A stretch of 64,000 nt of DNA from Octopus vulgaris (Eukaryota). The stretch's first letter is position 1; every line of letters starts with the position of its first letter. The notes under the pieces were generated by a model that saw nothing but the letters and a program-made list of their open reading frames with translations, did no database searches and was not told the DNA's origin. Positions 39,831 through 41,121 of this stretch are shown piece after piece. A program made the position numbers and the translations under genes. The stretch spans positions 123,194,001 to 123,258,000 of the forward strand of contig OX597820.1 in the NCBI GenBank assembly GCA_951406725.2. Direction: 5' to 3'.

Positions 39831-40452
39831 CTAAACTATTAAGTTCTGTTGTGTAGAAAGGAAACGATTCAATGTATCCATCAGAAAAGGGCAGATCCTT
39901 GGCGTACGGCACGACAAAAATTGGGTATAGAGTAGTTTATAATTATTTGCTATTTCAAAGTAATGGCAAGAGTTGTGTTTCTTGTCGATTAAGGGAGGTA
40001 ATTTGAAGTGTTTGGCACTTTCCCCAACGTTGATTGTTAGAGTTACCTCCCTTACTGTATGATTTATATTTTTTAATTTTTATGTGAGATTTTTACGTTG
40101 AAATATCGTAAACGTGTCTTAAATTTGGCAGGTATAATATATGGACCCAGGGGTATAGAAGTGAAATCGACTCAGACGAAAATTGAACTCGGAACATAAA
40201 GTCTGTCCAAATACAACTAACTCATATCTTTCGTTATACACACACGCAAACATACTTGTGTGTGTGTGGATCTCTTTCTCTCTCTCCTTATATATTATAT
40301 ATATATATATATATATATATATATATATATATATAAATTAGGATAAAATCTTAATAAGAAATCTTAATAAGAAATTATCAGGTGGTTTCTCATAAGAGAA
40401 AAAAATCTGTAAATTTTTTCACTTGATATATTTCATGATATATTTTGAATTC

Positions 40453-40516
40453 GTTTCACTGAAGAGCAAGAGACGTAGATGATACGTTAATTGCGAAATC
40501 ACAGGTGATCTGGAAC
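40453..40516 (+). ncRNA. Complete canonical type I hammerhead ribozyme
   Basis: gtttca-CTGAAGA-gcaa...(acgta-gatga-tacgt)...ttgc-GAAA-tcac-ag-gtga-TC-tggaac; all core bases intact; predicted AUC cleavage after 40510. Confidence 0.85.
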
Positions 40517-41121
40517 TAAATTCTGTTTTTAAATGTCTTGCTTTGAGAGCTGCATTCGGTTCGATTTGTTTATTTTTGGTAGTTATGACTTTAAAAGTCC
40601 CTCCTAGCGTGTGGCATTTATGTGTAATAATGCCCTCTATATAATATATATATATATATATATATATATATATATATATATATATATATATATATATATA
40701 TATATATATATATATATGTGTGTGTGTGTGTGTGTGTGTGTGTGTATTTATATATATATATATGTGTGTGTGTGTGTATATATATATGTGTGTGTGTGTG
40801 TGTATATATATATATATGTATCTGCATGTGTGTGTGTGTGCGTAGTGTTTGCATGAAGTTGTGTGTATGCGTGTACCTCTGTGTGATGGGCGTTGTATAC
40901 GTGCACTTGTGTGTAGTGCGTGTGTATCCATGTGTATGTATGTGTGTTTGGGTGAGGTTTAGAGTTAGTTGTCTTTGCGTCTCGTACACGATTACTTCGA
41001 CATAAGTCCACCTTGTTCGTCTTACACCTGCTGTTTGCCATTCACTTTGTCACCTCCATCTCTGTACTTTACTCTTTTCTTTCCTGATAAGCCTTGTTCC
41101 TTTCGTGTGTGCATAATTCAA

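What the first reader, a model, noticed from the sequence alone, without database searches (positions are those of the whole stretch)
40335..40645. Intact, fully paired hammerhead ribozyme in a ~310-bp ORF-less module between (TA)n tracts
Seen: at 40453-40516 all conserved core nucleotides are present (CUGAAGA, GAAA, AUC). Stem I has 6 bp (one G-U), stem II has 4 bp plus an internal loop and a 5-bp extension, and stem III has 5 pairs with a 2-nt loop. Established: this is the type I HHR found in PLE pLTRs and retrozymes, whose unit sizes are a few hundred nt. Inference: the best candidate here for an active self-cleaving RNA, and a family distinct from the other six motifs; any plus-strand transcript crossing it could be cut after 40510.
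Basis: partly seen in the sequence, partly recalled or inferred. Interest (0 to 1): 0.8.

Follow-up and report, generated by a model that had tools for sequence, protein, structure and literature searches.

The report
Hammerhead ribozyme in a retrozyme fragment
This is a real, intact hammerhead ribozyme motif inside a truncated, partly inverted copy of a roughly 480-base repeat whose family has over 2,000 such motifs in this animal genome; it is most likely an ordinary non-LTR retrozyme, predicted to cut itself best as a pair.

Summary
The hammerhead is real: type I, full core, predicted cut after 40510, the only strict match in the window, and 0 such matches in 200 shuffles. Stems I and II covary across 19 relatives. 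Rfam misses it.

The '310-bp module' is not a unit. It is two pieces of a 486-bp repeat: an inverted piece (40335-40427) and a sense piece with the ribozyme (40432-40648), between (TA)n tracts. The genome holds 2,156 exact matches to this ribozyme type, in 460-490-bp units that occur as fragments or arrays of up to 31 near-identical units. That is the anatomy of a non-LTR retrozyme, likely mobilised by Penelope-like elements. No autonomous partner sharing the unit was found.

Corrections: stem III cannot close a 2-nt loop. The monomer is predicted to misfold (stem III pairing probability 0.01), whereas the double hammerhead ties or equals the best two-strand fold. The copy is not special: 12 of the 30 closest copies are as intact. 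Activity and transcription are unshown. New member of a known kind.

The parts
40289..40334 (.). (TA)n tract, left flank; inferred insertion target
   Evidence: 22 of 27 distinct family insertions have a TA run of 18 nt or more on at least one side
40335..40427 (-). Inverted piece of the 486-bp unit (unit positions about 380-484, 11-nt deletion); a 5'-inversion-type fragment
40432..40648 (+). Sense, 5'-truncated piece of the unit (unit positions 149 to about 367), ending at the unit's internal TATATAAT where it merges with (TA)n
   Evidence: 93-100% identical to 43 other matches
40447..40523 (+). Hammerhead with a possible extension of stem I (40447-40451 with 40519-40523, across a 1x2 internal loop); extension weakly supported
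   Evidence: 12-17 of 19 sequences pair at the four extension pairs counted, none with a change on both sides
40453..40516 (+). Type I hammerhead motif: stem I 6 bp, core CUGAAGA and GAAA, stem II 4 bp plus 5-bp extension, stem III, AUC triplet, predicted cut after 40510
40498..40509 (+). Stem III region: 5-nt self-complementary arms around a 2-nt centre; predicted dimerisation surface
   Evidence: arms exact in 86 of 100 listed matches of a pattern that left them free (counted by eye)
40638..40717 (.). (TA)n tract, right flank
41115..41526 (.). Second, more diverged rearranged member of the same superfamily (inverted unit 44-168, sense 286-456, sense 130-160); no ribozyme in it

Best explanation
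This is an intact type I hammerhead motif inside a 5'-truncated, partly inverted copy of a 486-bp ORF-less repeat, most likely a non-LTR retrozyme copied into a (TA)n tract by a Penelope-like element's enzymes, and predicted to cleave best as a dimer. Shown: the motif, its covariation, the unit, the tandem arrays, the inversions, the TA flanks, and a young autonomous RT + GIY-YIG family in the same genome that also ends in (TA)n. Inferred: tandem arrays are transcribed; neighbouring ribozymes pair through stems I and III into a double hammerhead and cut out unit-length RNA; a host ligase circularises it (as published for other retrozymes); a PLE RT/endonuclease nicks (TA)n and primes on the RNA's UA-rich sites (unit about 367-376 and about 486), and a second priming gives the inverted head. 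The window copy spans the cut site, so its template was a religated circle or an uncut multimer, not a cleaved linear monomer. With one ribozyme and 0.65 unit it is probably a dead-end copy. Odds: retrozyme-type element 0.85; dimer clearly better than monomer 0.6-0.65; circle rather than uncut multimer as template 0.5.
For: Unit of 486 bp read from natural locus L005; the window module maps to two pieces of it in opposite orientation. 44 matches at 93-100% to the ribozyme region; 2,156 exact pattern matches genome-wide with 0 for the reversed control. Tandems: period 460 in L067, 479-480 in L033 and L168, and 478-483 over 31 sense ribozymes in L163-L164, where the 30 units differ from the middle one by at most 2 mismatches and 5 gap positions. 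That 15.6-kb array has a 517-bp inverted head and (TA)n on both sides. 12 of 27 distinct close insertions carry an inverted piece. Covariation in 19 selected sequences: 90.6% of cells paired, 11 of 23 pairs with changes on both sides, 66 such cells versus 25.8 shuffled, slid controls 23-37% paired. Double-hammerhead fold -38.8 kcal/mol versus -31.6 for two free monomers; it ties the best cofold for the window motif and is the best cofold topology for three other subfamilies. Three natural units fold as circles better than 40 shuffles each (z -2.8 to -5.6). PLE with RVT_1 and GIY-YIG hits and a CxxxxCxxC linker; 150 of 150 scored copies 99-100% identical, many in 775-aa frames; the 30 fetched run into (TA)n at two preferred ends. 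Literature: PMC7229834, PMC4209133, PMC8557442, bioRxiv 10.64898/2026.07.22.740005.
Against: No autonomous element joined to or sharing this unit: none in 30 loci of the young PLE family (only 20-29-nt AT-rich matches), none in 30 GIY-YIG loci (one separate neighbouring insertion), none in 30 loci picked by the unit's 3' motif. PLE ORFs beside L003 and L028 have their own 3' ends. No same-strand two-ribozyme tandem of the window's own subfamily was seen in the loci fetched, only partial tandems. Rfam finds no hammerhead. Stem III never covaries (fixed by the pattern there) and its deviations look like decay. Energy models ignore Mg2+ and loop 1-loop 2 contacts, and cofolding ignores concentration. 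In a published test only 1 of 9 predicted retrozyme dimers cleaved. The TA flank count has no shuffled control and the genome is TA-rich. The covariation set is related sequences I chose, one per variant.
Confidence: 0.82

Rival explanations
1. The unit is the pseudo-LTR of an autonomous Penelope-like family not sampled here; the window copy is a 5'-truncated PLE insertion, and the arrays are solo-pLTR amplifications.
For: Same truncation, inversion, two-ended and (TA)n anatomy as the autonomous family (PMC8557442 passages). 24 of 57 Xenopus retrozyme families match known TEs, nearly all PLE termini (bioRxiv). Only 150 of 17,488 and 150 of 6,136 candidates were scored, and 30 of each fetched.
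Against: Where copies extend upstream they continue into the preceding unit (unit 486 to 1 junction), not into an ORF. No PLE protein match joined to the unit in the loci examined. The PLE families seen carry different ribozymes.
Confidence: 0.12
2. Same element, but the ribozyme is an efficient monomer (4-bp stem III, tetraloop, loop 1-loop 2 contact), so a plus-strand transcript crossing 40510 would be cut. This concerns catalysis only and is compatible with the retrozyme origin.
For: Canonical 6-bp and 4-bp helices with G10.1-C11.1. A 4-bp stem III is longer than the 1-2 bp typical of dimer-dependent metazoan ribozymes (PMC4209133). Most invertebrate retrozyme ribozymes cleave efficiently (PMC7229834). 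Bases 3' of stem I are near-invariant, as a tertiary contact would need. The hammerhead fold is only 2.4 kcal/mol above the misfold.
Against: Predicted stem III pairing 0.01-0.04 and stem I 0-0.15 in four sequence contexts. The stem III hairpin alone is +0.4 kcal/mol versus -11.2 as a duplex. Subfamilies with a 1-nt centre or a perfect 12-nt palindrome fit a duplex better. No host transcript was identified at this locus.
Confidence: 0.35
3. A DNA-level satellite or MITE-like repeat in which the hammerhead is an inactive relic or coincidence.
For: Near-identical arrays can arise by unequal crossover. Many copies carry core or stem defects (18 of 30 not fully intact; A10.1 variants are common). 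The relative at 41115-41526 looks like a MITE (97-bp inverted arms).
Against: Compensatory changes in stems I and II and the extension, with an invariant core, across subfamilies only 70-86% alike. Ends and inversion points are variable, and the inverted arms are pieces of the unit rather than fixed terminal repeats.
Confidence: 0.05

Closest known systems
Metazoan non-LTR retrozymes (Cervera and de la Pena 2020, PMC7229834; mussel, coral, axolotl)
   Same: Type I hammerhead in ORF-less, low-GC (33-35%) tandem units, from monomer fragments to multimers; thousands of motifs per genome; co-resident autonomous PLEs; self-paired predicted circle.
   Different: Units 460-490 bp versus 150-450 bp there (51-972 bp in the bioRxiv survey). 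Stem II has an internal loop and extension in several subfamilies. Stem III arms are 5 nt. Insertions sit in (TA)n, often with inverted heads. No RNA or cleavage data here.
Pseudo-LTR hammerheads of Penelope-like elements (Cervera and de la Pena 2014, PMC4209133; Craig et al. 2021, PMC8557442)
   Same: Palindromic helix III thought to act in dimers; 5' truncation, partial tandems, inverted 5' copy, microsatellite insertion bias.
   Different: No ORF joined to the unit. The helices are canonical (6 and 4 bp, no bulged base after A9) rather than minimal.
Newt/axolotl satellite-2 double hammerhead (described in PMC7229834 passages)
   Same: Tandem units whose ribozymes would complete helix III between neighbours.
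   Different: The amphibian helix III is 1-2 bp with a palindromic tetraloop. Here a 4-bp monomer stem is possible, so dimer dependence is predicted, not forced.

Membership tests
Type I hammerhead ribozyme | Core CUGANGA, GAAA, NUH in order, with helix I open-ended | tested here: met
Type I hammerhead ribozyme | Three helices, supported by covariation | tested here: met
   for helices I and II; helix III conserved without covariation
Type I hammerhead ribozyme | Match to an Rfam hammerhead model | tested here: not met
   not a defining feature of the class. The long stem II insert is my untested explanation.
Type I hammerhead ribozyme | Self-cleavage at the NUH site | not testable with these tools
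   needs an in vitro assay
Non-LTR retrozyme | Type I ribozyme in each unit of a short head-to-tail repeat | tested here: met
   Met for the superfamily. The window copy itself is a sub-monomer fragment and would not count as an 'active' retrozyme under the two-unit criterion.
Non-LTR retrozyme | No protein-coding capacity, low GC | tested here: met
   (GC 0.33-0.35); absence of PBS/PPT not tested separately
Non-LTR retrozyme | Autonomous PLEs in the same genome | tested here: met
Non-LTR retrozyme | Expressed as unit-length linear and circular RNA | tested here: inconclusive
   only contigs of runs guessed to be RNA
Autonomous PLE (pseudo-LTR of an ORF-bearing element) | Repeat joined to an RT + GIY-YIG ORF | tested here: inconclusive
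   Not seen in any locus examined, but only a small sample of the genome's PLE copies was fetched

The most novel reading that the evidence does not exclude
A still-spreading retrozyme superfamily in which a near-invariant self-complementary stem III makes cleavage dimer-only, while subfamily-specific stem I sequences decide which ribozymes can pair. Its insertions, such as a 15.6-kb array of 31 near-identical units behind a 517-bp inverted head in (TA)n, would be single-event footprints of twin-primed rolling-circle reverse transcription of an RNA circle by the co-resident young PLE. With donor RNA and intact 775-aa enzyme in one genome, the proposed circle-templated PLE mechanism becomes directly testable.
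Probability: 0.3. Interest if true: 0.55.

Novelty: new member of a known kind. Interest (0 to 1): 0.3.

Why it matters
The single copy matters little: it is one fragment among thousands. The family has modest value. My searches of the held library found no description of retrozymes for the taxon I guessed, and none with the terms retrozyme, microsatellite and inversion together. It offers young arrays, diverse covarying ribozymes and an intact candidate helper PLE in one genome. That suits two open questions the cited papers raise: whether RNA circles template PLE-type insertion, and whether these ribozymes work as dimers. Supplements I could not read (PMC7229834, one file of PMC4209133, the bioRxiv tables) and Repbase/Dfam, which are not searchable here, may already list this family.

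Tried and rejected
Rfam: no hammerhead family hit. Treating 40335-40645 as an element with its own ends: rejected. PLE ORFs next to L003 and L028 as the parent element: rejected, each has its own unrelated 3' repeat and is separated by (TA)n. Unit homology in 30 young-PLE loci, 30 GIY-YIG loci and 30 3'-motif loci: none joined. Sequencing runs: no RNA holder listed; 15 small-share runs were only guessed to be RNA. Laying contigs of 4 such runs on the unit and of 2 such runs plus 2 of unknown kind on the window module gave no start/end or circle information. One 134-nt contig crossed the cut site with 2-3 differences, and no listed piece bridged this locus's inversion junction; neither is used as evidence. 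The depth step just before the cut site was rejected as a cleavage signal because other subfamilies align only from there on. Host gene around the locus: 12 ORFs scanned with Pfam gave only transposon domains and two sub-threshold hits; exons shorter than 110 aa were not examined. Earlier findings of the scan: nothing returned. One search crashed and was redone. Host identity was not tested; 'octopus' and 'cephalopod' in my literature searches rest on recalled resemblance of repeats and on genome size only.

Full report
Observation. A descriptor scan of both strands found it as the only strict type I hammerhead in the window, with C17 at 40510. 200 block-wise dinucleotide shuffles gave 0.035 loose hits per window and none with stems 6/4/5. 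Rfam did not detect it at either threshold. The 64-mer folds better than shuffles (z -2.4), but into a different structure, and longer fragments are not distinguishable from shuffles (z -1.1 and -0.8).

What the module is. A search of the window's own genome (G000, 2.8 Gb, 227 contigs) with 40440-40560 gave 44 matches from 40 scored of 1,541 candidates, the full-length ones 93-100% identical. In the 30 loci fetched, similarity to the window begins at 40432 and ends near 40650. Locus L005 holds a complete natural unit of 486 bp preceded by the end of the previous unit. Against it the window module is an inverted piece (unit about 380-484, with an 11-nt deletion) followed by a sense piece (149 to about 367). 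A second, ribozyme-less rearranged relative lies at 41115-41526. After dropping L008 and L009 (same insertions as L003 and L004) and L022 (near-duplicate of L021), 12 of 27 insertions carry an inverted piece and 22 of 27 have a TA run of 18 nt or more on at least one side (no control, TA-rich genome). Outer ends cluster at two unit positions, about 376 (an internal TATATA) and about 456-486. Of the 30 closest copies, 25 keep the core and 12 keep the core and all three stems, so the window copy is good but not unique.

The superfamily. A pattern for the core plus the stem III arms has 2,156 exact matches, with 0 for the reversed control. Subfamilies are 70-86% alike to the unit, mainly downstream of the ribozyme. 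Head-to-tail arrays have periods of 460 and 478-483 bp. L033 holds four sense and three antisense near-identical ribozyme units back to back within (TA)n. L163-L164 holds 31 sense ribozymes behind a 517-bp inverted head, 15.6 kb in all, with (TA)n on both sides. Contigs of two runs with different organism labels also cover the module's parts at 92% or more.

Structure. On 19 sequences chosen from the 44 distinct variants, stems I and II and the extension show compensatory changes: 11 of 23 pairs, 66 cells versus 25.8 shuffled, 90.6% paired versus 23-37% for slid controls. These are relatives, so the shuffle counts are not probabilities. Stem III was fixed by my pattern there. With it left free, 86 of the 100 listed matches (of 377) kept the same arms (counted by eye), the centre varied from 1 to 3 nt, and I saw no compensatory pair. 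A 2-nt loop cannot close, so the monomer has 4 bp and a tetraloop. That hairpin is +0.4 kcal/mol against -11.2 as a two-strand duplex, and the window's monomer hammerhead (-13.4) lies above a misfold (-15.8). In four contexts up to the whole module, stem III pairing stays at 0.01-0.04. The double hammerhead (-38.8) beats two free monomers (-31.6) and ties the best cofold; for three other subfamilies the best cofold has the double-hammerhead topology. These are nearest-neighbour predictions without Mg2+, tertiary contacts or concentration. Three natural units fold as circles with z -2.8 to -5.6.

Helper. PLE ORFs lie beside two fetched copies. One (L031:4464-6179) has RVT_1 (below the curated cut-off) and GIY-YIG (at the cut-off) hits and a CxxxxCxxC linker; the label 'Neptune-type' rests on that linker as described in PMC8557442, with no tree built. 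Its family is young: 150 of 150 scored copies are 99-100% identical and many have 775-aa frames. The 30 fetched end in (TA)n at two preferred points. But these ORFs have their own 3' repeats, and no ORF joined to or sharing the 486-bp unit turned up in 90 further loci. The helper is therefore inferred from shared insertion anatomy only.

Mechanism. Shown: motif, covariation, unit, arrays, inversions, TA flanks, a resident intact PLE. Inferred: array transcripts are cut to unit length by paired ribozymes, circularised by a host ligase, and reverse-transcribed at nicked (TA)n, primed at the RNA's UA-rich sites, with second priming giving the inverted head. One deduction follows from the sequence if the copy is retrotransposed: it runs through the cut site, so the template was a religated circle or an uncut multimer. 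In a double hammerhead stem I also forms between partners, so stem I differences would limit pairing to a subfamily (inference). The window copy has no second family ribozyme in the window, so efficient cutting of a passing transcript is not expected unless the monomer works (about 0.35). No host exon was identified, and public contigs could not address expression.

Comparison and reading. PMC7229834: passages and one section read, supplement unreadable. PMC4209133: parts 1-2 of 4 read; supplement search found no octopus or cephalopod mention, with one file not searched. bioRxiv 10.64898/2026.07.22.740005: parts 1-3 of 5 read, supplements not seen. PMC8557442: passages. These describe type I ribozymes in short tandem units, palindromic helix III and dimers, PLE truncation and inversion with microsatellite bias, and a PLE origin of retrozymes. 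The element meets the testable sequence criteria at family level; RNA circles and cleavage are untested. Searches found no paper on this family under the terms used, which leaned on an untested guess of the host taxon.

Verdict. Observation confirmed, interpretation partly supported. A new member of a known kind; interest 0.3. The boldest reading not excluded, dimer-only cleavage with stem-I partner choice and arrays as single rolling-circle insertions, has probability about 0.3 and interest 0.55.

Noticed in passing
window 994-1029 (+), 2313-2347 (+), 21422-21473 (+): Three minimal-hammerhead-like motifs, each with a core deviation, unrelated to the 486-bp unit; probably decayed PLE terminal repeats.
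   Followed up: partly
window 61381-61815 (-): 3' fragment of a PLE ORF with cysteine linker and GIY-YIG (43% identical to the L031 protein), followed by about 800 bp of 3' sequence ending in (TA)n.
   Followed up: partly
L031:6655-6715 and L073-L102: The young PLE family carries a hammerhead-like motif with C instead of U at core position 4 in nearly all 30 fetched copies, with a short palindromic stem III.
   Followed up: no
G000:C1:64639650-64655250 (L163-L164): 15.6-kb array of 31 near-identical 481-bp ribozyme units behind an inverted head, in (TA)n; the best substrate for testing rolling-circle insertion.
   Followed up: partly
window 40613-40645: A short potential hairpin just before the unit's internal TATATAAT end; 482 exact pattern matches in the genome, and the deepest-covered part in two contig runs. 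Possible priming or recognition signal.
   Followed up: partly
window 4713-5128, 19471-19881, 20455-20883, 23472-23901, 25364-25788, 26233-26646, 43655-44030 and fragments: A family of about 430-bp MITE-like elements with 29-bp terminal inverted repeats, at least 7 near-full copies in the window.
   Followed up: no
window 24212-24597, 27874-28282, 36035-36493, 44325-44707, 49009-49403, 49816-50231, 50744-51133: A family of about 400-bp SINE-like repeats, many copies at 70-93% identity.
   Followed up: no
window 15855-18131 (+); 33330-33794 (+); 28790-29416 (-): A 758-codon open frame with a reverse transcriptase domain, a DDE_Tnp_1_7 transposase fragment, and an endonuclease fragment of a LINE.
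   Followed up: no
L005, L007, L013, L021 and others: A10.1 in place of G10.1 (A-C mismatch at the base of stem II) in 10 of the 30 closest copies and in whole subfamilies; may shift stem II register or weaken catalysis.
   Followed up: no
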